Shown piece after piece: positions 31,564-41,130 of a stretch of DNA of 64,000 nt. Within the stretch, counting starts at the first letter, position 1. Every line of letters starts with the position of its first letter. Location of the stretch: assembly GCF_054482595.1 (NCBI RefSeq), contig NZ_CM137008.1. The stretch is one strand, 5' to 3'. A program made the position numbers and the translations under genes. The notes beneath the pieces are model-generated. The model saw only the letters and a list, made by a program, of their open reading frames with translations, made no database searches and was not told the DNA's origin.

Positions 31564-33099
31564 ATGGCTACATCAGTACAGACAGGTAAAGCTAAGCAGC
31601 TCACATTACTCGGCTTTTTTGCCATAACGGCATCGATGGTAATGGCTGTTTATGAATACCCTACCTTCGCAACATCGGGCTTTTCATTAGTCTTCTTCCT
31701 GCTATTAGGCGGGATTTTATGGTTTATTCCCGTGGGACTTTGTGCTGCGGAAATGGCCACCGTCGACGGCTGGGAAGAAGGTGGTGTCTTCGCCTGGGTA
31801 TCAAATACTCTGGGGCCGAGATGGGGATTTGCAGCGATCTCATTTGGCTATCTGCAAATCGCCATTGGTTTTATTCCGATGCTCTATTTCGTGTTAGGGG
31901 CACTCTCCTACATTCTGAAATGGCCAGCGCTGAATGAAGACCCCATTACCAAAACTATTGCAGCACTCATCATTCTTTGGGCGCTGGCATTAACGCAGTT
32001 TGGTGGCACGAAATACACGGCGCGAATTGCTAAAGTTGGCTTCTTCGCCGGTATCCTGTTACCTGCATTTATTTTGATTGCATTAGCGGCTATTTATCTG
32101 CACTCCGGTGCCCCCGTTGCTATCGAAATGGATTCGAAGACCTTCTTCCCTGACTTCTCTAAAGTGGGCACCCTGGTTGTATTTGTTGCCTTCATTTTGA
32201 GTTATATGGGCGTAGAAGCTTCCGCAACCCACGTCAATGAAATGAGTAACCCAGGGCGCGACTATCCACTGGCTATGTTACTGCTGATGGTGGCGGCAAT
32301 CTGCTTAAGCTCTGTTGGCGGTTTGTCTATTGCGATGGTCATTCCGGGTAATGAAATCAACCTCTCCGCAGGGGTAATGCAAACCTTTACCGTTCTGATG
32401 TCCCATGTGGCACCGGAAATTGAGTGGACGGTTCGCGTGATCTCCGCACTGCTGTTGCTGGGTGTTCTGGCGGAAATCGCCTCCTGGATTGTTGGTCCTT
32501 CTCGCGGGATGTATGTCACAGCGCAGAAAAACCTGCTGCCAGCGGCATTCGCTAAAATGAACAAAAATGGCGTACCGGTAACGCTGGTCATTTCACAGCT
32601 GGTGATTACTTCTATCGCGTTGATCATCCTCACCAATACCGGTGGCGGTAACAACATGTCCTTCCTGATCGCACTGGCGCTGACGGTGGTGATTTATCTG
32701 TGTGCTTATTTCATGCTGTTTATTGGCTACATTGTGTTGGTTCTTAAACATCCTGACTTAAAACGCACATTTAATATCCCTGGTGGTAAAGGTGTGAAAC
32801 TGGTCGTGGCTATTGTCGGTCTGCTGACTTCAATTATGGCGTTTATTGTTTCCTTCCTGCCGCCGGATAATATCCAGGGTGACTCTACCGATATGTATGT
32901 TGAATTACTGGTCGTTAGTTTCCTGGTGGTACTTGCCCTGCCCTTTATTCTCTATGCTGTTCATGATCGTAAAGGCAAAGCGAATACCGGCGTCACTCTG
33001 GAGCCAATCAACAGTCAGAACGCACCAAAAGGTCACTTCTTCCTGCACCCGCGTGCACGTTCACCACACTATATTGTGATGAATGACAAGAAACACTAA
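31564..33099 (+). CDS. gadC: Glutamate:GABA antiporter (511 aa)
   Basis: APC-family polytopic membrane protein directly downstream of gadB. Confidence 0.95.
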
Positions 33100-33122
33100 C
33101 CATGTCTGAATGGTTATAAGAC

Positions 33123-33152
33123 AAGGGAGCGATAATTCATCGCTCCCTTTTT
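33123..33152 (+). terminator. Intrinsic terminator after gadC (AAGGGAGCGA...TCGCTCCCTT then TTT)
   Basis: Perfect hairpin with T tract. Confidence 0.6.
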
Positions 33153-33229
33153 CGTGCTTGCTGTCGTATTGACTTAACCGGGATAAGTACGAGAATGAGC
33201 GCACATCTGTTTACCGGAAACCAGCACAT

Positions 33230-34549
33230 ATGGATATCTGCTCCCGAAACAAGAAATTAACGATTAGAAGACCAGCGATACTGGTTGCACTGGCACTTTT
33301 ACTGTGTAGTTGTAAAAGCACGCCTCCAGAGTCCATGGTGACACCACCAGCGGGTTCAAAGCCACCAGCCACGACGCAACAATCGTCACAACCGATGCGT
33401 GGCATCTGGCTGGCCACGGTGTCTCGCCTCGACTGGCCACCGGTTTCCTCGGTTAACATTAGTAACCCCACCAGCCGGGCCCGTGTACAACAACAGGCGA
33501 TGATCGACAAATTGGATCATTTGCAACGTCTCGGTATAAACACGGTCTTTTTCCAGGTCAAGCCGGACGGTACCGCCCTGTGGCCTTCAAAAATTTTGCC
33601 ATGGTCCGATCTTATGACCGGTAAGATTGGTGAAAATCCGGGTTACGATCCGCTGCAATTTATGCTCGACGAAGCCCACAAGCGTGGGATGAAAGTACAC
33701 GCCTGGTTTAACCCCTATCGCGTATCGGTTAATACGAAGCCCGGTACTATCAGGGAACTGAATAGCACTCTGTCTCAACAACCGGCGAGCGTCTATGTGC
33801 AACACCGTGACTGGATCAGAACGTCTGGCGATCGCTTTGTCCTCGACCCGGGCATCCCTGAGGTTCAGGACTGGATCACATCAATAGTCGCAGAAGTGGT
33901 TTCCCGCTATCCGGTAGATGGCGTGCAGTTTGACGACTATTTCTATACTGAGTCACCGGGTTCACGGCTAAATGATAACGAAACGTACCGCAAATACGGA
34001 GGCGCATTTGCGTCAAAAGCAGACTGGCGGCGCAACAATACTCAGCAGTTAATTGCAAAAGTATCGCACACCATTAAAAGCATTAAGCCGGGAGTCGAAT
34101 TTGGTGTTAGCCCGGCAGGCGTGTGGCGTAACCGATCACACGATCCGCTCGGTTCCGATACCCGAGGCGCGGCAGCCTATGACGAATCCTACGCTGACAC
34201 CCGTCGATGGGTGGAACAAGGATTGCTGGATTACATTGCTCCCCAAATTTACTGGCCGTTCTCACGGAGTGCCGCGCGTTATGACGTGTTGGCAAAATGG
34301 TGGGCGGATGTCGTTAAACCGACCAGGACCCGCCTGTATATCGGTATCGCCTTCTATAAAGTGGGTGAACCTTCAAAGATAGAGCCAGACTGGATGATTA
34401 ACGGCGGCGTACCGGAACTGAAAAAGCAGCTCGATCTTAACGATGCGGTACCAGAAATTAGCGGCACCATCTTGTTCCGTGAGGACTATCTGAATAAACC
34501 GCAGACTCAACAAGCGGTCAGCTATCTGCAAAGTCGTTGGGGCAGTTAA
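33230..34549 (+). CDS. yddW: Lipoprotein glycoside hydrolase (YddW/DigH family), 439 aa
   Basis: Signal peptide with Cys-containing lipobox-like segment (LLLCSC) and glycoside-hydrolase-like domain. Confidence 0.8.
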   Translation: MDICSRNKKLTIRRPAILVALALLLCSCKSTPPESMVTPPAGSKPPATTQQSSQPMRGIWLATVSRLDWPPVSSVNISNPTSRARVQQQAMIDKLDHLQRLGINTVFFQVKPDGTALWPSKILPWSDLMTGKIGENPGYDPLQFMLDEAHKRGMKVHAWFNPYRVSVNTKPGTIRELNSTLSQQPASVYVQHRDWIRTSGDRFVLDPGIPEVQDWITSIVAEVVSRYPVDGVQFDDYFYTESPGSRLNDNETYRKYGGAFASKADWRRNNTQQLIAKVSHTIKSIKPGVEFGVSPAGVWRNRSHDPLGSDTRGAAAYDESYADTRRWVEQGLLDYIAPQIYWPFSRSAARYDVLAKWWADVVKPTRTRLYIGIAFYKVGEPSKIEPDWMINGGVPELKKQLDLNDAVPEISGTILFREDYLNKPQTQQAVSYLQSRWGS

Positions 34550-34920
34550 ACTCCCATTCTTACTTTGTAACAAGCCGGTACATTACCCACCGGCTTGTTA
34601 CCCTCTTGAACTATCCCACTACTAATCATGCTTACTAAAGTCAAATTAACCATGCAATTAACCACACTTAGTTAAACAGCCATAAATCCCCTAATACAAA
34701 TGTATGAATATGAAAAAACATACGATATTCGCTGTCACCGAAAAATAATTACGATGGGCTATACTCTTCTGAAGAACAGTAGCGTAGATTGAAACTGTCC
34801 TAAGTCGCTTATTTCTTTTCAGTATATCTTCATATTTCAGGAGAATATGGTGCAGTTAGTCGATCTCGCACGTTGCGTTTTGATTCCGTCTGATTTCCCA
34901 GCCTTATAAGGGTGTGAATT

Positions 34921-36303
34921 ATGGAGATGTATTTTAAAAGAATGAAAGATGAGTGGACCGGACTTGTCGAACAGGCAGATCCGCCCATTCGAGCTAAAGC
35001 CGCGGAAATTGCCGTTGCGCATGCTCATTATCTGAGTATTGAGTTTTATCGAATTGTCCGCATCGACCCGCATGCCGAAGAATTCTTGAGTAATGAACAA
35101 GTTGAGCGGCAGTTGAAAAGTGCGATGGAACGCTGGATTATTAACGTGCTTTCTGCCCAGGTTGACGATGTCGAAAGGCTAATACAAATCCAGCATACCG
35201 TCGCGGAAGTGCATGCCCGCATAGGAATTCCGGTAGAAATTGTCGAGATGGGGTTTCGGGTGCTGAAAAAGATCCTCTATCCGGTAATCTTCTCTTCGGA
35301 TTATTCTGCCGCAGAAAAACTTCAGGTCTACCATTTCTCGATTAACAGTATTGATATCGCTATGGAAGTGATGACCCGCGCGTTTACCTTTAGTGACAGT
35401 AGTGCCTCAAAAGAAGATGAAAACTATCGTATCTTCTCGTTACTGGAAAACGCCGAAGAAGAAAAAGAACGGCAAATAGCCTCAATACTTTCATGGGAAA
35501 TAGATATCATCTATAAAATCCTGCTGGATTCTGATTTAGGCAGTAGTTTGCCTTTAAGCCAGGCTGATTTTGGCCTGTGGTTTAACCATAAAGGTCGACA
35601 TTATTTCAGCGGCATTGCTGAAGTGGGCCATATCTCTCGTCTGATTCAGGATTTCGACGGTATTTTCAATCAAACCATGCGTAACACCAGGAATTTGAAT
35701 AACAGAAGTCTGCGGGTGAAATTTTTATTACAGATAAGAAATACCGTATCGCAAATTATTACCTTGCTGCGTGAATTGTTTGAAGAAGTATCGCGCCACG
35801 AAGTCGGTATGGATGTACTGACGAAATTACTTAACCGCCGTTTCCTGCCGACTATCTTCAAACGCGAAATTGCCCATGCCAACCGGACCGGTACACCGCT
35901 GTCAGTGCTGATTATTGACGTTGATAAATTCAAAGAGATCAACGATACGTGGGGCCATAACACTGGCGATGAAATTCTGCGTAAAGTCTCTCAGGCCTTT
36001 TATGACAACGTCCGCAGTAGTGATTATGTTTTCCGCTACGGGGGCGATGAATTTATCATTGTTTTGACTGAAGCTTCTGAAAACGAAACGTTACGTACCG
36101 CAGAACGTATTCGCAGTCGGGTGGAGAAAACCAAACTGAAAGCCGCAAACGGCGAAGATATTGCCCTCTCACTTTCCATCGGTGCCGCCATGTTTAATGG
36201 TCATCCTGACTATGAGCGCCTCATTCAAATAGCCGATGAAGCTCTGTATATCGCCAAAAGACGAGGTAGAAACCGTGTTGAACTCTGGAAAGCCAGTCTT
36301 TAG
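34921..36303 (+). CDS. dosC: Globin-coupled diguanylate cyclase, oxygen sensor (460 aa)
   Basis: N-terminal sensor globin region, C-terminal GGDEF domain with RYGGDEF. Confidence 0.9.
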   Translation: MEMYFKRMKDEWTGLVEQADPPIRAKAAEIAVAHAHYLSIEFYRIVRIDPHAEEFLSNEQVERQLKSAMERWIINVLSAQVDDVERLIQIQHTVAEVHARIGIPVEIVEMGFRVLKKILYPVIFSSDYSAAEKLQVYHFSINSIDIAMEVMTRAFTFSDSSASKEDENYRIFSLLENAEEEKERQIASILSWEIDIIYKILLDSDLGSSLPLSQADFGLWFNHKGRHYFSGIAEVGHISRLIQDFDGIFNQTMRNTRNLNNRSLRVKFLLQIRNTVSQIITLLRELFEEVSRHEVGMDVLTKLLNRRFLPTIFKREIAHANRTGTPLSVLIIDVDKFKEINDTWGHNTGDEILRKVSQAFYDNVRSSDYVFRYGGDEFIIVLTEASENETLRTAERIRSRVEKTKLKAANGEDIALSLSIGAAMFNGHPDYERLIQIADEALYIAKRRGRNRVELWKASL

Positions 36304-36327
36304 ATGCGCCAGGATGCAGAGGTAATC

Positions 36328-38727
36328 ATGAAGCTAACCGATGCGGATAATGCCGCCGATGGCATTTTTTTCCCCGCCCTTGAGCAAAATATGATGGGTG
36401 CGGTGTTAATTAACGAAAATGATGAAGTGATGTTTTTCAACCCCGCCGCAGAGAAGCTCTGGGGGTACAAACGTGAAGAAGTCATTGGCAATAACATTGA
36501 TATGCTGATTCCGCGGGATTTGCGTCCTGCGCATCCTGAATACATTCGTCATAACCGTGAAGGCGGTAAAGCGCGCGTCGAGGGGATGAGTCGGGAGCTG
36601 CAGCTGGAGAAAAAAGACGGCAGTAAAATCTGGACCCGTTTTGCGCTATCAAAAGTGAGCGCCGAGGGGAAAGTTTATTACCTGGCGCTGGTACGGGATG
36701 CCAGCGTAGAAATGGCGCAAAAAGAACAGACCAGGCAATTGATTATTGCCGTTGACCATCTCGACCGACCGGTGATTGTCCTCGATCCGGAACGCCATAT
36801 TGTGCAGTGCAATCGCGCATTTACCGAAATGTTTGGTTACTGCATTAGCGAAGCCAGCGGTATGCAGCCCGATACACTCCTGAACATTCCTGAATTCCCT
36901 GCCGATAACCGCATTCGTTTACAACAGTTGCTATGGAAAACCGCCCGCGATCAGGACGAATTTCTGCTGTTGACGCGCACCGGTGAAAAAATCTGGATTA
37001 AAGCTTCTATCAGCCCGGTTTATGACGTGCTCGCGCATCTGCAGAACCTGGTAATGACCTTCTCGGATATCACCGAAGAACGGCAAATCCGCCAGCTTGA
37101 AGGCAATATTCTCGCCGCCATGTGCAGCAGCCCGCCATTTCATGAAATGGGGGAAATCATTTGTCGTAATATCGAATCTGTTCTCAACGAATCGCATGTT
37201 TCGCTGTTCGCACTGCGCAACGGGATGCCGATACACTGGGCGTCATCTTCCCACGGTGCAGAAGTTCAAAATGCGCAAAGCTGGTCAGCGACCATTCGTC
37301 AGCGTGATGGCGCGCCTGCGGGGATCCTGCAAATTAAAACCTCGTCAGGAGCAGAAACCAGCGCCTTTATCGAACGCGTGGCAGATATCAGCCAGCATAT
37401 GGCCGCGCTGGCGCTGGAACAGGAAAAAAGCCGTCAGCATATTGAACAACTCATCCAATTTGATCCGATGACCGGTCTGCCAAATCGCAATAACCTGCAC
37501 AATTACCTCGATGACCTGGTCGACAAAGCCGTCTCTCCGGTGGTGTATCTCATCGGTGTTGACCATATTCAGGATGTGATTGATAGCCTTGGCTATGCGT
37601 GGGCCGATCAGGCATTGCTGGAAGTGGTCAATCGCTTTCGTGAAAAACTCAAACCGGATCAGTATCTCTGTCGTATCGAAGGTACGCAGTTTGTCCTCGT
37701 GAGCCTGGAAAACGACGTCAGTAACATTACCCAAATCGCCGATGAGCTACGGAATGTGGTCAGCAAGCCGATAATGATTGACGATAAACCCTTCCCGCTT
37801 ACCTTGAGTATTGGCATCAGCTACGACGTGGGTAAAAACCGCGATTACCTGCTCTCCACTGCTCACAATGCAATGGATTATATTCGCAAGAATGGCGGTA
37901 ACGGCTGGCAGTTCTTCAGCCCGGCGATGAACGAAATGGTAAAAGAGCGTTTGGTTTTAGGCGCAGCGCTGAAAGAGGCGATTAGCAATAACCAACTGAA
38001 ACTGGTTTACCAGCCGCAAATCTTCGCAGAAACGGGTGAACTGTACGGCATCGAAGCCCTTGCTCGCTGGCACGATCCCCAGCATGGTCATGTGCCCCCT
38101 TCACGGTTTATTCCTCTCGCAGAAGAGATTGGTGAAATCGAAAATATTGGGCGCTGGGTCATCGCGGAAGCTTGCCGTCAGTTAGCAGAATGGCGTAGCC
38201 AGAATATTCATATCCCGGCGTTATCCGTGAACTTGTCGGCGCTGCACTTTCGCAGTAATCAACTGCCTAATCAGGTGTCTGATGCAATGCAAGCCTGGGG
38301 TATTGACGGCCACCAGCTGACGGTGGAAATCACGGAAAGCATGATGATGGAACACGATACCGAAATCTTTAAGCGCATTCAGATCCTGCGTGATATGGGC
38401 GTGGGTTTATCGGTAGATGATTTTGGCACGGGCTTTTCCGGATTATCCCGCTTAGTCAGTCTTCCGGTAACGGAAATCAAAATTGACAAAAGTTTTGTCG
38501 ATCGTTGTCTGACGGAAAAACGCATCCTTGCCTTACTTGAAGCCATTACCAGCATTGGGCAAAGCCTCAATTTAACCGTCGTGGCGGAAGGCGTCGAAAC
38601 CAAAGAGCAATTTGAGATGCTACGTAAGATCCACTGTCGAGTTATTCAGGGATATTTCTTTTCCCGCCCCCTACCCGCCGAAGAAATTCCAGGCTGGATG
38701 AGCAGCGTGTTACCGCTGAAAATCTGA
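36328..38727 (+). CDS. dosP: Haem-PAS c-di-GMP phosphodiesterase, oxygen sensor (799 aa)
   Basis: PAS domains, degenerate GGDEF and EAL domain; track ORF begins 8 codons upstream, I chose MKLTDADNAADG. Confidence 0.9.
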   Translation: MKLTDADNAADGIFFPALEQNMMGAVLINENDEVMFFNPAAEKLWGYKREEVIGNNIDMLIPRDLRPAHPEYIRHNREGGKARVEGMSRELQLEKKDGSKIWTRFALSKVSAEGKVYYLALVRDASVEMAQKEQTRQLIIAVDHLDRPVIVLDPERHIVQCNRAFTEMFGYCISEASGMQPDTLLNIPEFPADNRIRLQQLLWKTARDQDEFLLLTRTGEKIWIKASISPVYDVLAHLQNLVMTFSDITEERQIRQLEGNILAAMCSSPPFHEMGEIICRNIESVLNESHVSLFALRNGMPIHWASSSHGAEVQNAQSWSATIRQRDGAPAGILQIKTSSGAETSAFIERVADISQHMAALALEQEKSRQHIEQLIQFDPMTGLPNRNNLHNYLDDLVDKAVSPVVYLIGVDHIQDVIDSLGYAWADQALLEVVNRFREKLKPDQYLCRIEGTQFVLVSLENDVSNITQIADELRNVVSKPIMIDDKPFPLTLSIGISYDVGKNRDYLLSTAHNAMDYIRKNGGNGWQFFSPAMNEMVKERLVLGAALKEAISNNQLKLVYQPQIFAETGELYGIEALARWHDPQHGHVPPSRFIPLAEEIGEIENIGRWVIAEACRQLAEWRSQNIHIPALSVNLSALHFRSNQLPNQVSDAMQAWGIDGHQLTVEITESMMMEHDTEIFKRIQILRDMGVGLSVDDFGTGFSGLSRLVSLPVTEIKIDKSFVDRCLTEKRILALLEAITSIGQSLNLTVVAEGVETKEQFEMLRKIHCRVIQGYFFSRPLPAEEIPGWMSSVLPLKI

Positions 38728-38924
38728 CAAATTCCTCTCGCCCGCACTCGCGGGTTTTCATTTAACGTGACACTGTCACTTAAATACTGTGATTTCAGCT
38801 ACGATTCCGGGAGATTCCTTCCTTAACTTCCCCTCTTGCACCAAAACTGCACTACGCTGCACAAATGTTGATCAAAAGTTAAAAAATATAACTTTAAGCC
38901 AGCATTCTGGCGCTTATCCCGGCA

Positions 38925-38941
38925 TGGCATGAGATCTGCAT
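38925..38941 (+). promoter_or_regulatory. Candidate sigma-54 promoter (TGGCAT-N5-CTGCAT) for the ddp operon
   Basis: GG and GC elements with correct spacing about 45 bp upstream of ddpX; NtrC-like half-site TGCACCA at approx 38837-38863. Confidence 0.5.
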
Positions 38942-38984
38942 AAGCGGAAAGCGCAGCAATTTTTGTCTTATACAGGAACCGTTT

Positions 38985-39566
38985 ATGTCGGATACCACCG
39001 AACTGGTTGATTTAGCCGTGATCTTCCCTGATCTGGAGATCGAATTGAAATACGCCTGCGCTGATAACATCACAGGTAAAGCTATTTATCAGCAAGCGCG
39101 TTGTCTGTTACACAAGGATGCGATTACCGCGCTGGCGAAAAGTATCAGTATCGCCCAGCTCTCAGGCTTACAACTGGTGATTTACGATGCGTACCGCCCA
39201 CAACAAGCACAGGCGATGTTGTGGCAAGCCTGCCCAGACCCGCAATATGTTGTTGATGTGACGGTCGGTTCTAATCACAGCCGTGGCACGGCGATCGACC
39301 TGACGCTTCGTGATGAGCACGGGAACATCCTCGATATGGGCGCAGGGTTCGATGAAATGCACGAGCGCTCCCATGCCTATCACCCTTCCGTCCCGCCCGC
39401 CGCTCAGCGCAATCGCCTGTTGCTGAATGCGATAATGACTGGTGGCGGTTTTGTCGGTATCTCCAGCGAATGGTGGCACTTCGAATTACCCCAGGCAGCG
39501 AGTTACCCACTGCTCGCTGATCAATTCACCTGTTTTATATCCCCTGGCACACAGCACGTCAGTTAA
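38985..39566 (+). CDS. ddpX: D-Ala-D-Ala dipeptidase, VanX homologue (193 aa)
   Basis: Size and family sequence; first gene of the ddp operon. Confidence 0.9.
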   Translation: MSDTTELVDLAVIFPDLEIELKYACADNITGKAIYQQARCLLHKDAITALAKSISIAQLSGLQLVIYDAYRPQQAQAMLWQACPDPQYVVDVTVGSNHSRGTAIDLTLRDEHGNILDMGAGFDEMHERSHAYHPSVPPAAQRNRLLLNAIMTGGGFVGISSEWWHFELPQAASYPLLADQFTCFISPGTQHVS

Positions 39567-39579
39567 TCAGGAAACTGTC

Positions 39580-41130
39580 ATGAAAAGATCGATATCGTTT
39601 CGTCCTACATTGCTCGCGCTCGTCCTTGCCACAACTTTCCCGGTTGCGCACGCCGCCGTACCGAAAGATATGCTGGTGATTGGTAAGGCCGCCGATCCAC
39701 AAACCCTCGACCCGGCGGTAACAATAGATAATAACGACTGGACGGTGACCTACCCGTCTTATCAGCGGCTGGTTCAGTACAAAACGGACGGTGATAAAGG
39801 CTCAACCGACGTTGAAGGCGATCTGGCGAGTGGCTGGAAAGCGTCTGACGATCAAAAAGAGTGGACGTTCACCCTGAAGGACAATGCTAAATTTGCCGAT
39901 GGCACACCCGTCACTGCCGAAGCAGTAAAACTCTCTTTTGAGCGGTTACTAAAAATCGGCCAGGGGCCAGCAGAAGCATTTCCCAAAGATTTAAAGATTG
40001 ATGCTCCCGACGAACATACGGTGAAGTTTACCCTTAGCCAGCCATTTGCACCGTTCCTCTACACGCTGGCGAATGACGGTGCATCCATTATCAATCCGGC
40101 GGTGTTAAAGGAACATGCGGCGGATGATGCCCGCGGCTTCCTCGCGCAAAATACCGCCGGTTCCGGACCATTTATGCTGAAAAGCTGGCAAAAAGGTCAG
40201 CAATTAGTTCTGGTGCCAAATCCGCATTACCCTGGCAATAAACCGAACTTTAAGCGAGTATCGGTAAAAATTATTGGTGAAAGTGCCTCCCGTCGCCTGC
40301 AGCTCTCCCGTGGCGACATTGACATTGCCGATGCGCTGCCGGTGGATCAACTCAACGCCCTGAAGCAGGAAAATAAAGTCAATGTGGCAGAGTATCCGTC
40401 ACTGCGCGTCACCTATCTGTATCTGAATAACAGCAAAGCGCCACTTAATCAGGCGGATCTGCGGCGGGCCATTTCCTGGTCTACCGATTATCAGGGCATG
40501 GTTAACGGCATTCTGAGTGGTAACGGAAAACAGATGCGCGGCCCGATTCCGGAAGGCATGTGGGGCTACGATGCGACGGCAATGCAATACAACCATGACG
40601 AAACGAAAGCCAAAGCTGAATGGGATAAAGTGACGAACAAACCCACCAGCCTGACGTTTCTCTATTCTGATAATGATCCGAACTGGGAGCCTATTGCTCT
40701 GGCGACACAATCCAGTCTCAACAAGCTGGGCATCAATGTGAAGCTGGAAAAGCTGGCGAACGCCACCATGCGCGACAGAGTGGGTAAAGGTGATTACGAC
40801 ATTGCGATTGGCAACTGGAGTCCGGATTTTGCCGACCCGTATATGTTTATGAATTACTGGTTTGAGTCAGACAAAAAAGGTCTGCCGGGTAACCGCTCGT
40901 TCTATGAAAACAGTGAGGTCGATAAGTTACTGCGCAATGCGCTCGCGACCACCGACCAGACGCAGCGTACCCGGAACTACCAGCAGGCACAGAAAATCGT
41001 CATTGATGACGCTGCTTATGTGTACCTGTTCCAGAAAAACTACCAACTGGCGATGAACAAAGAGGTGAAAGGCTTTGTGTTCAATCCCATGCTGGAACAG
41101 GTCTTCAATATCAATACCATGAGTAAATAA
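39580..41130 (+). CDS. ddpA: Dipeptide ABC transporter periplasmic binding protein (516 aa)
   Basis: Signal peptide MKRSISFRPTLLALVLATTFPVAHA; family 5 solute-binding protein; track ORF starts 46 codons upstream. Confidence 0.9.
   Translation: MKRSISFRPTLLALVLATTFPVAHAAVPKDMLVIGKAADPQTLDPAVTIDNNDWTVTYPSYQRLVQYKTDGDKGSTDVEGDLASGWKASDDQKEWTFTLKDNAKFADGTPVTAEAVKLSFERLLKIGQGPAEAFPKDLKIDAPDEHTVKFTLSQPFAPFLYTLANDGASIINPAVLKEHAADDARGFLAQNTAGSGPFMLKSWQKGQQLVLVPNPHYPGNKPNFKRVSVKIIGESASRRLQLSRGDIDIADALPVDQLNALKQENKVNVAEYPSLRVTYLYLNNSKAPLNQADLRRAISWSTDYQGMVNGILSGNGKQMRGPIPEGMWGYDATAMQYNHDETKAKAEWDKVTNKPTSLTFLYSDNDPNWEPIALATQSSLNKLGINVKLEKLANATMRDRVGKGDYDIAIGNWSPDFADPYMFMNYWFESDKKGLPGNRSFYENSEVDKLLRNALATTDQTQRTRNYQQAQKIVIDDAAYVYLFQKNYQLAMNKEVKGFVFNPMLEQVFNINTMSK

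What the first reader, a model, noticed from the sequence alone, without database searches (positions are those of the whole stretch)
34921..38727. dosC-dosP oxygen-sensing c-di-GMP module
A globin-coupled GGDEF cyclase is followed 25 bp later by a haem-PAS EAL phosphodiesterase, a matched synthesis/degradation pair. Upstream, a hairpin after yddW (approx 34573-34606) and an AT-rich leader precede dosC. Well known, but it is a self-contained signalling system in the window.
Basis: established knowledge. Interest (0 to 1): 0.25.

Follow-up and report, generated by a model that had tools for sequence, protein, structure and literature searches.

The report
Intact E. coli dosC-dosP oxygen-sensing operon
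This stretch is the ordinary, intact Escherichia coli dosC-dosP operon, a well-studied pair of haem enzymes that make and break the bacterial signal molecule c-di-GMP in response to oxygen. Nothing about the two genes here is new.

Summary
Window 34921-36303 (+) encodes DosC, 460 aa and 100% identical in protein to E. coli K-12. It has a sensor globin, the DosC middle domain and a GGDEF domain. Window 36328-38727 (+) encodes DosP, 799 aa with four conservative differences from K-12. It has a haem-PAS, a second PAS, a silent EGTQF domain and an EAL domain. The dosP start lies 25 nt after the dosC stop.

All haem ligands and catalytic motifs are intact: DosC Y43, H98, RSSD365-368 and GGDEF374-378; DosP H77, M95, R97 and the full EAL metal and catalytic set. 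The flanking genes (gadC, digH/yddW, ddpX, ddpA) match K-12. The DNA is 100% identical to several sequenced E. coli chromosomes. The hairpin after digH and the AT-rich leader are real.

Side observations:
- The leader carries the small ORF yddY, here a 20-aa allele instead of K-12's 13 aa. Its start site is conserved across Escherichia but its coding sequence is not.
- A predicted long-range helix covers the dosC start codon. It has no covariation support.
- About a fifth of complete E. coli genomes have lost dosC. This window has not.

The parts
34567..34601 (+). Stable hairpin 18 nt after the digH (yddW) stop. It marks the upstream boundary of the dosCP control region. It is probably the digH 3' end or terminator, but has no U-tract.
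   Evidence: 13-bp stem, 9-nt loop, -21 kcal/mol, z -6.5; the terminator scan does not pick it up; the core gccggt/accggc is conserved across Escherichia lineages, and the K-12 differences lie only in the loop.
34602..34846 (+). AT-rich intergenic region and leader (GC 0.34). The block from about 34680 to 34846 is highly conserved across Escherichia species and presumably holds the dosCP promoter.
   Evidence: GC content and alignment of 7 Escherichia sequences. Expression reported as RpoS-dependent (PMC11543664). The regulatory region of yddY is reported as PhoQP-dependent (PMC11429745).
34759..34765 (+). CTATACT, which resembles a sigma-S type -10 element. This is inferred, not shown.
   Evidence: Invariant in all 7 Escherichia sequences. 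The motif alone is not significant: 3 hits in the window against 4.2 expected. The general sigma-70 scan found no promoter in the intergenic region.
34847..34909 (+). yddY leader small ORF, 20-aa allele ([20 protein letters not shown]). K-12 has 13 aa ([13 protein letters not shown]). A 5-nt deletion relative to K-12 shifts the frame, so the stop lies 11 nt before the dosC ATG.
   Evidence: K-12 annotation b4746. (alignment and ORFs); the window form is >=99% identical in 1171 of 5403 records. Expression of the K-12 protein is reported in 10.1101/511675 and PMC11429745.
34921..36303 (+). dosC (dgcO, yddV): globin-coupled diguanylate cyclase, 460 aa.
   Evidence: 0 aa differences from K-12, 19 nt differences; matches PDB 4zva/4zvb, 4zvc and 4zve.
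34921..35430 (+). DosC sensor globin domain (aa 1-170), with distal Tyr43 and proximal His98.
   Evidence: Protoglobin, aa 27-155. (4zva covers aa 8-170). (Y43, H98). Residue roles from PMC5549716.
35437..35814 (+). DosC middle domain (aa 173-298), a helical linker domain.
   Evidence: PF21118 DosC_2nd, 166.7 bits against a cut-off of 31. (4zvc covers aa 173-298).
35809..36300 (+). DosC GGDEF catalytic domain (aa 297-460). The GGDEF motif is aa 374-378 (nt 36040-36054). The I-site RSSD is aa 365-368.
   Evidence: GGDEF, 5e-51. (4zve). (motifs).
36304..36327 (+). dosC-dosP spacer of 24 nt. It holds the dosP Shine-Dalgarno GAGG. It is also the 8 extra codons (MRQDAEVI) of the historical 807-aa DosP numbering.
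   Evidence: sequence. PMC11543664 methods (historical numbering). (RefSeq start at 36328).
36328..38727 (+). dosP (pdeO, yddU, EcDOS): haem-PAS c-di-GMP phosphodiesterase, 799 aa.
   Evidence: NCBIfam equivalog NF008467, 1646.5 bits against a cut-off of 857; full-length PDB entries 9bgv and 9cdr, E = 0.
36400..36699 (+). DosP haem-binding PAS domain, with His77, Met95 and Arg97 (807 numbering).
   Evidence: PAS_9, aa 25-124. (1v9y, 1s66).. (these residues are invariant in 9 orthologues).
36748..37086 (+). DosP second PAS (PAS-PAC) domain.
   Evidence: PAS_4, aa 142-253; PAS_8, aa 141-192.
37459..37902 (+). DosP silent GGDEF-like domain, with EGTQF in place of GGDEF.
   Evidence: GGDEF, 6e-22, aa 378-525. 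(EGTQF at aa 451 in 799 numbering). [quoted passage not shown]
37966..38670 (+). DosP EAL phosphodiesterase domain, with all catalytic and metal-binding residues present.
   Evidence: EAL, 1.5e-70. (4hu3). (807 numbering): E584, R588, N643, E675, E678, D705, D706, K726, E762, Q782.
38740..38765 (+). Terminator-like hairpin (GCCCGC-ACTC-GCGGGT) followed by TTTTCATTT, 13 nt after the dosP stop. Probably the end of the operon.
   Evidence: scan. (-11.4 kcal/mol, z -3.1).

Best explanation
This is the intact dosCP operon of a non-K-12 E. coli strain.

Shown here: two complete ORFs with every domain and every haem-binding and catalytic residue that the characterised proteins need, in the native chromosomal context.

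Taken from the literature on near-identical proteins:
- DosC binds O2 at a globin haem (proximal His98, distal Tyr43) and makes c-di-GMP from two GTP at its GGDEF site.
- DosP holds a His77-Fe-Met95 haem in its N-terminal PAS domain. O2, stabilised by Arg97, displaces Met95. The change travels along the elongated dimer and switches on the distant EAL domain, which cuts c-di-GMP to pGpG using two Mg2+ ions and Lys726.
- The two enzymes are made together in stationary phase under RpoS. They are proposed to act as a push-pull rheostat for a local c-di-GMP pool associated with PNPase.

Inferred from sequence: transcription starts in the conserved AT-rich block upstream of yddY and ends at the hairpin after dosP, and dosP is translated from its own Shine-Dalgarno sequence in the 24-nt spacer.
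For: -: DosC is identical in protein to K-12. DosP differs by I313V, L501V, L585Q and H655Q (799 numbering).
- at all four DosP sites the window residue matches other Escherichia lineages, and none is a catalytic position.
- the Pfam architectures fit both proteins.
- DosP scores 1646 bits against the NCBIfam DosP equivalog (cut-off 857).
- top PDB matches are DosC and DosP themselves, including full-length DosP (E = 0).
- all motifs are located.
- the DNA is 100% identical over 4.3 kb to chromosomes annotated digH-dosC-dosP.
- dosC-dosP adjacency is kept in other Escherichia lineages, Citrobacter sedlakii and C. amalonaticus, Phytobacter and some Trabulsiella paralogues.
- Mechanism and regulation: PMC11543664 and PMC5549716.
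Against: Nothing found here argues against identity or integrity. Three uncertainties remain:
- The sign of DosC's response to O2 is described differently by different groups. PMC11543664 says the unliganded form produces c-di-GMP. From my own knowledge, Kitanishi et al. 2010 reported the O2-bound form as active.
- No expression data exist for this strain.
- The promoter and the digH terminator are inferred only. The sigma-70 scan found no promoter in the intergenic region.
Confidence: 0.97

Rival explanations
1. One or both genes are decayed or inactive copies, as happens in many E. coli and in E. albertii, so the 'matched pair' would be only nominal.
For: Decay of this locus is common. About 1150 of 5413 genomes cover only 72% of the query, and the one such record examined in detail keeps only a 164-nt dosC remnant beside an intact dosP. 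The E. albertii type strain carries an out-of-frame dosC-dosP deletion with an internal stop. Loss of DosC is also reported in PMC5635171.
Against: In the window both ORFs are full length. DosC is 100% identical to active K-12 DosC. All DosP catalytic and haem residues are present.
Confidence: 0.02
2. dosP starts at the ATG at 36304, directly abutting the dosC stop codon. That would give the 807-aa protein used in structural work, translated by termination-reinitiation coupling rather than from a start 25 nt later.
For: The in-frame ATG at 36304 follows the TAG immediately. The 807-aa form is the construct used for the PDB entries, and it folds and is active (PMC11543664).
Against: No Shine-Dalgarno sequence precedes 36304, whereas GAGG lies 7 nt before 36328. 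RefSeq, UniProt and the NCBIfam equivalog model use the 799-aa form (profile positions 1-800 match residues 1-799).
Confidence: 0.15
3. The transcription unit is really yddY-dosC-dosP. In this view the leader small ORF and a long-range RNA helix control dosC translation, so the first reader missed a regulatory layer of the module.
For: - The yddY Shine-Dalgarno sequence and ATG are invariant across Escherichia, while the ORF varies from 2 to 20 codons.
- In the window allele the stop lies 11 nt before the dosC ATG.
- A predicted helix pairs 34809-34839 with 34915-34945 and buries the dosC start (z -2.9).
- YddY is translated in K-12 and its regulatory region is PhoQP-dependent (10.1101/511675; PMC11429745).
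Against: - The helix has no covariation support, and most variation breaks pairs.
- Citrobacter, Kluyvera, Phytobacter and Enterobacter leaders have no counterpart.
- The 3' arm is coding sequence and would be conserved anyway.
- Deleting or overexpressing yddY gave no phenotype (PMC11429745, Table 1).
Confidence: 0.15

Closest known systems
E. coli K-12 dosCP operon (b1490 dosC/dgcO/yddV, b1489 dosP/pdeO/yddU/EcDOS)
   Same: Same genes, order, 24-nt spacer, flanking genes (gadC, digH, ddpX, ddpA) and domain architecture. DosC protein is identical and DosP is 795/799 identical. DNA identity is about 98.6-98.9%.
   Different: - DosP has four substitutions (I313V, L501V, L585Q, H655Q).
- A 5-nt deletion in the leader makes yddY 20 aa instead of 13 aa.
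- A 12-nt tandem copy (aattaaccatgc) is present in the intergenic region.
- The window shows the locus in the opposite orientation to the K-12 map.
Globin-coupled diguanylate cyclases (BpeGReg of Bordetella pertussis, Pectobacterium DgcO)
   Same: The globin, middle domain and GGDEF architecture, with distal Tyr43 and an RxxD I-site (PMC5549716; PDB 6m9a, 4uii and 4uiq matched).
   Different: These are distant in sequence. Other full-length globin-GGDEF proteins recovered here are only about 35-37% identical. According to PMC5549716, BpeGReg may cooperate with an HD-GYP protein rather than an adjacent DosP.
Haem-PAS O2 sensors FixL and Gluconacetobacter PDE-A1
   Same: The haem-PAS fold with the conserved Arg that hydrogen-bonds bound O2. 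PDE-A1 also couples it to an EAL output (PMC11543664). The FixL equivalog matches DosP residues 26-136 weakly.
   Different: FixL drives a histidine kinase. In DosP the unliganded haem is six-coordinate (His-Fe-Met95).
dosC-less E. coli genomes and the E. albertii pseudogene
   Same: The same chromosomal site and the same dosP.
   Different: In those genomes dosC is reduced to remnants or fused out of frame, and in NZ_CP184025 the ddp operon is also absent. The window keeps everything.

Membership tests
DosC / DgcO (globin-coupled diguanylate cyclase) | N-terminal sensor globin with proximal His98 and distal Tyr43 | tested here: met
   Pfam Protoglobin, 41.5 bits against a cut-off of 25. PDB 4zva and 4zvb at E 1e-101 and 3.5e-96. 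Y43 and H98 present. Residue roles from PMC5549716.
DosC / DgcO (globin-coupled diguanylate cyclase) | DosC-specific middle domain (PF21118), with His223 and Lys224 | tested here: met
   DosC_2nd, 166.7 bits against a cut-off of 31. The protein is identical to K-12, so H223 and K224 are present.
DosC / DgcO (globin-coupled diguanylate cyclase) | Catalytically competent GGDEF domain (GGDEF motif, A-site residues) with an RxxD I-site five residues upstream | tested here: met
   GGDEF at aa 374-378 and RSSD at aa 365-368. GGDEF domain 173 bits. 100% identical to the K-12 enzyme.
DosC / DgcO (globin-coupled diguanylate cyclase) | Haem binding and O2-dependent cyclase activity | not testable with these tools
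   Inferred from protein identity with the characterised K-12 enzyme.
DosP / PdeO / EcDOS (haem-PAS c-di-GMP phosphodiesterase) | Full-length match to the curated DosP equivalog model | tested here: met
   NF008467, 1646.5 bits against a cut-off of 857, covering residues 1-799.
DosP / PdeO / EcDOS (haem-PAS c-di-GMP phosphodiesterase) | Haem-PAS with axial ligands His77 and Met95, and the O2-stabilising Arg97 (807 numbering) | tested here: met
   Residues located and invariant in 9 orthologues. PDB 1v9y and 1s66 matched.
DosP / PdeO / EcDOS (haem-PAS c-di-GMP phosphodiesterase) | Second PAS domain and a silent GGDEF-like (EGTQF) domain between sensor and output | tested here: met
   PAS_4 at aa 142-253 and GGDEF at aa 378-525. 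EGTQF motif found.
DosP / PdeO / EcDOS (haem-PAS c-di-GMP phosphodiesterase) | Active-type EAL domain: E584(AL)xR588, N643, E675xxE678, D705-D706-FGTG, K726, E762, Q782 | tested here: met
   All are present in the window and invariant across Escherichia and Citrobacter orthologues. The roles of K726, E584 and R588 come from PMC11543664. The other positions were assigned by me from the standard EAL signature motifs (own knowledge).
DosP / PdeO / EcDOS (haem-PAS c-di-GMP phosphodiesterase) | O2-stimulated hydrolysis of c-di-GMP to pGpG | not testable with these tools
   Inferred. The four substitutions relative to K-12 lie outside the catalytic and haem positions.
dosCP operon | dosC immediately upstream of dosP on the same strand with a short spacer, in the gadC-digH ... 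ddpX context | tested here: met
   24-nt spacer. Synteny with K-12 and strain Santai. Adjacency is conserved in other genera.
dosCP operon | Co-transcription from an RpoS-dependent promoter | not testable with these tools
   Literature only (PMC11543664). Here there is only a conserved CTATACT look-alike and a terminator-like site after dosP.

The most novel reading that the evidence does not exclude
The conserved start site of the yddY mini-ORF may form a translational control device for dosC, together with a predicted 28-pair helix that pairs the region just upstream of it (34809-34839) with the dosC start codon and first eight codons (34915-34945). Natural yddY alleles might then set different DosC:DosP ratios: 2-3 codons in other Escherichia lineages, 13 aa in K-12, and 20 aa here with the stop 11 nt before the dosC ATG. 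In this window's allele, a ribosome terminating at yddY would sit on the 3' arm of the helix and could open the dosC start site.
Probability: 0.12. Interest if true: 0.35.

Novelty: already known. Interest (0 to 1): 0.1.

Why it matters
The dosCP module is a textbook example of haem-based gas sensing coupled to c-di-GMP turnover, so finding an intact copy in an E. coli chromosome adds nothing new. Its value here is as a correctly read landmark. It fixes the window as E. coli, in the gadC-digH-dosCP-ddp region, with a complete O2/c-di-GMP pair. That is unlike roughly a fifth of sequenced strains, which have lost dosC. The leader observations (a yddY of variable length with a conserved start site, and a possible helix masking the start codon) could matter modestly for how the DosC:DosP ratio is set. 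They are unproven.

Tried and rejected
- Rfam scan of 33000-40000 at E <= 1 found no RNA family, so there is no known riboswitch or sRNA in the leader or spacer.
- The sigma-70 promoter scan found nothing in the digH-dosC intergenic region. The three hits inside the genes are fewer than chance expects (3 against 6.4).
- The terminator-like sites inside dosC and dosP (35558, 36349 and two on the minus strand) are at chance frequency (6 against 4.9) and were ignored.
- The spacer and early dosP region (36290-36375) has no notable structure (z +0.78).
- The CTATACT motif is not statistically distinguishable from chance on its own.
- The leader helix was tested for covariation in six Escherichia sequences and for counterparts in five other genera. 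Neither test supported it.
- A literature search for a mapped dosCP promoter found nothing in the held library.
- Locus L002 was not exported to the script machine, so K-12 was fetched again as L003.
- No structure prediction was run, because solved structures of essentially the same proteins exist.
Full report
**Observation**

The ORF table shows a 460-aa ORF at 34921-36303 (+). An 807-aa ORF follows immediately at 36304-38727 (+). RefSeq annotation of identical DNA (strain Santai) and of K-12 places the dosP start at the internal ATG equivalent to 36328, giving 799 aa. The dosC stop is TAG at 36301-36303, and 24 nt separate it from that ATG. GAGG lies 7 nt upstream of 36328, and no Shine-Dalgarno sequence precedes 36304. 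The extra eight codons (MRQDAEVI) are the 'historical numbering' used in DosP structural papers (PMC11543664).

**Identity**

A megablast of 34500-38800 against 5426 complete E. coli genomes found a match in 5413. Several were 100% identical over the full 4301 nt and annotated digH-dosC-dosP.

Compared with K-12 MG1655:
- DosC has 0 amino-acid differences (19 nt differences, all silent).
- DosP has four: I313V, L501V, L585Q and H655Q (799 numbering).
- The neighbours are also the K-12 neighbours: digH (0 differences), gadC (0) and ddpX (1).

In an alignment with other Escherichia lineages and Citrobacter, the window residue at each of the four DosP sites matches other Escherichia lineages. None of the four is a functional position.

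**Domains and catalytic integrity**

- Pfam: DosC has Protoglobin, DosC_2nd and GGDEF. DosP has two PAS domains, GGDEF and EAL.
- NCBIfam: DosP scores 1646.5 bits against the DosP equivalog (cut-off 857). DosC passed only the generic GGDEF domain model in that library, and no DosC-specific model appeared among its hits. The Pfam DosC_2nd domain is the specific marker for it.
- PDB sequence searches return the DosC globin, middle and GGDEF crystal structures. For DosP they return the haem-PAS, the EAL domain and the full-length cryo-EM entries.
- DosC motifs: Y43, H98, the I-site R365-S-S-D368 and G374GDEF378.
- DosP motifs in 807 numbering: H77, M95, R97, E584-A-L, R588, N643, E675-I-T-E678, D705-D706-FGTGF, K726, E762 and Q782. 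The central domain carries EGTQF in place of GGDEF.
- These DosP residues are invariant across nine orthologues.

**Mechanism (from the literature, applied by identity)**

DosP is an elongated dimer. The unliganded haem is His-Fe-Met95 coordinated. O2 displaces Met95 and is held by Arg97. The signal travels about 180 Å to the EAL domain, where two Mg2+ ions and Lys726 catalyse cleavage of c-di-GMP to pGpG. O2 controls catalysis, not substrate binding (PMC11543664).

The operon is RpoS-controlled. [quoted passage not shown] The pair is proposed to work as a push-pull rheostat near PNPase (PMC11543664). Which haem state of DosC is the active one is described differently by different groups. I flag this and do not resolve it.

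**Flanking features**

- The hairpin after digH is real: 34567-34601, a 13-bp stem, -21 kcal/mol and z -6.5. It has no U-tract and was not called by the terminator scan. Its core is conserved in other Escherichia lineages.
- The leader is AT-rich: GC is 0.34 against 0.48 for the window.
- A terminator-like hairpin with a T-run follows dosP at 38740-38765.
- No Rfam family matches anywhere in 33000-40000.

**Beyond the finding: the leader**

K-12 annotates a 13-aa protein, YddY, whose stop lies 37 nt upstream of the dosC start. In the window a 5-nt deletion changes it to a 20-aa ORF (34847-34909) whose stop lies 11 nt before the dosC ATG. The window form is >=99% identical in 1171 of 5403 records, and the K-12-length form is the commonest among the sampled rows.

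Across six Escherichia lineages:
- The Shine-Dalgarno sequence and ATG are invariant.
- The 170-nt block upstream of them, including gggCTATACTctt, is highly conserved.
- The ORF is only 2-3 codons long in the outgroups.

So the start site is conserved and the peptide is not.

YddY is translated at a low level in K-12 (10.1101/511675). It is induced at low Mg2+ in a PhoQP-dependent way, and neither deletion nor overexpression gave a phenotype (PMC11429745).

RNA folding predicts a 28-pair helix between 34809-34839 and 34915-34945 that buries the dosC start codon (z -2.9). The Escherichia alignment gives no covariation for it, and other genera show no counterpart. I treat it as a lead only.

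**Population context**

About 1150 genomes cover only 72% of the query. In the example examined, dosC is reduced to two small remnants, dosP is intact and the ddp operon is absent. Loss of DosC in natural isolates is already documented (PMC5635171, citing Povolotsky & Hengge 2016). The E. albertii type strain has an out-of-frame dosC-dosP deletion.

DosC orthologues in Enterobacter and Kluyvera have no dosP within 4 kb downstream. The pair is adjacent in Escherichia, Citrobacter sedlakii and C. amalonaticus, Phytobacter and some Trabulsiella paralogues.

**Verdict**

The system is already known, and interest is low. The only slightly novel thread is the possibility of leader-ORF and helix control of dosC translation, which I rate as unlikely (about 0.12) and of modest interest.

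Noticed in passing
window 34847-34909: The yddY small ORF is a 20-aa allele here ([20 protein letters not shown]), where K-12 has 13 aa. A 5-nt deletion causes the change, and the stop now lies 11 nt before the dosC ATG. About 22% of E. coli records carry this form. In other Escherichia lineages the ORF is only 2-3 codons long, although its Shine-Dalgarno sequence and ATG are invariant.
   Followed up: partly
window 34809-34839 paired with 34915-34945: A predicted 28-pair long-range helix (4 G-U pairs) covers the dosC start codon and first eight codons. The 150-nt fold has z -2.9. It has no covariation support in six Escherichia sequences and no counterpart in Citrobacter, Kluyvera, Phytobacter or Enterobacter.
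   Followed up: partly
window 34756-34768: gggCTATACTctt is invariant in seven Escherichia sequences and resembles a sigma-S type -10 element. The motif alone occurs at chance frequency in the window.
   Followed up: partly
window 34635-34657: A 12-nt tandem duplication (aattaaccatgc followed by aattaaccaca) is present in the intergenic region. K-12 has one copy. The B2-like strain 1435 has both copies.
   Followed up: partly
L004 (NZ_CP184025.1) 2928-3091, and about 1150 other E. coli genomes: dosC is reduced to a short frameshifted remnant: a roughly 45-nt piece of the middle domain joined to the last ~160 nt. dosP stays intact. In this strain osmC follows dosP in place of the ddp operon. 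The left edge of the deletion lies inside yddY, at the same spot as the 5-nt indel.
   Followed up: partly
L013 (Escherichia albertii NBRC 107761) about 4001-6080: dosC codons 1 to about 356 are joined out of frame to dosP from about codon 453, between the two GGDEF-type domains. There is also an internal stop in the dosP part, so this is a pseudogene.
   Followed up: partly
L011, L014-L018 (Kluyvera, Enterobacter and one Citrobacter sp. isolate): DosC orthologues (67-78% identity) have no dosP within 4 kb downstream, so the matched pair is not universal among enteric bacteria that have DosC.
   Followed up: no
L030 (Oceanospirillum linum NZ_MTSD02000211.1, a 398-nt contig): A very short, low-coverage contig in a marine bacterium's assembly encodes DosC residues 1-79 at 100% identity to E. 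coli. This is probably E. coli contamination of that assembly.
   Followed up: no
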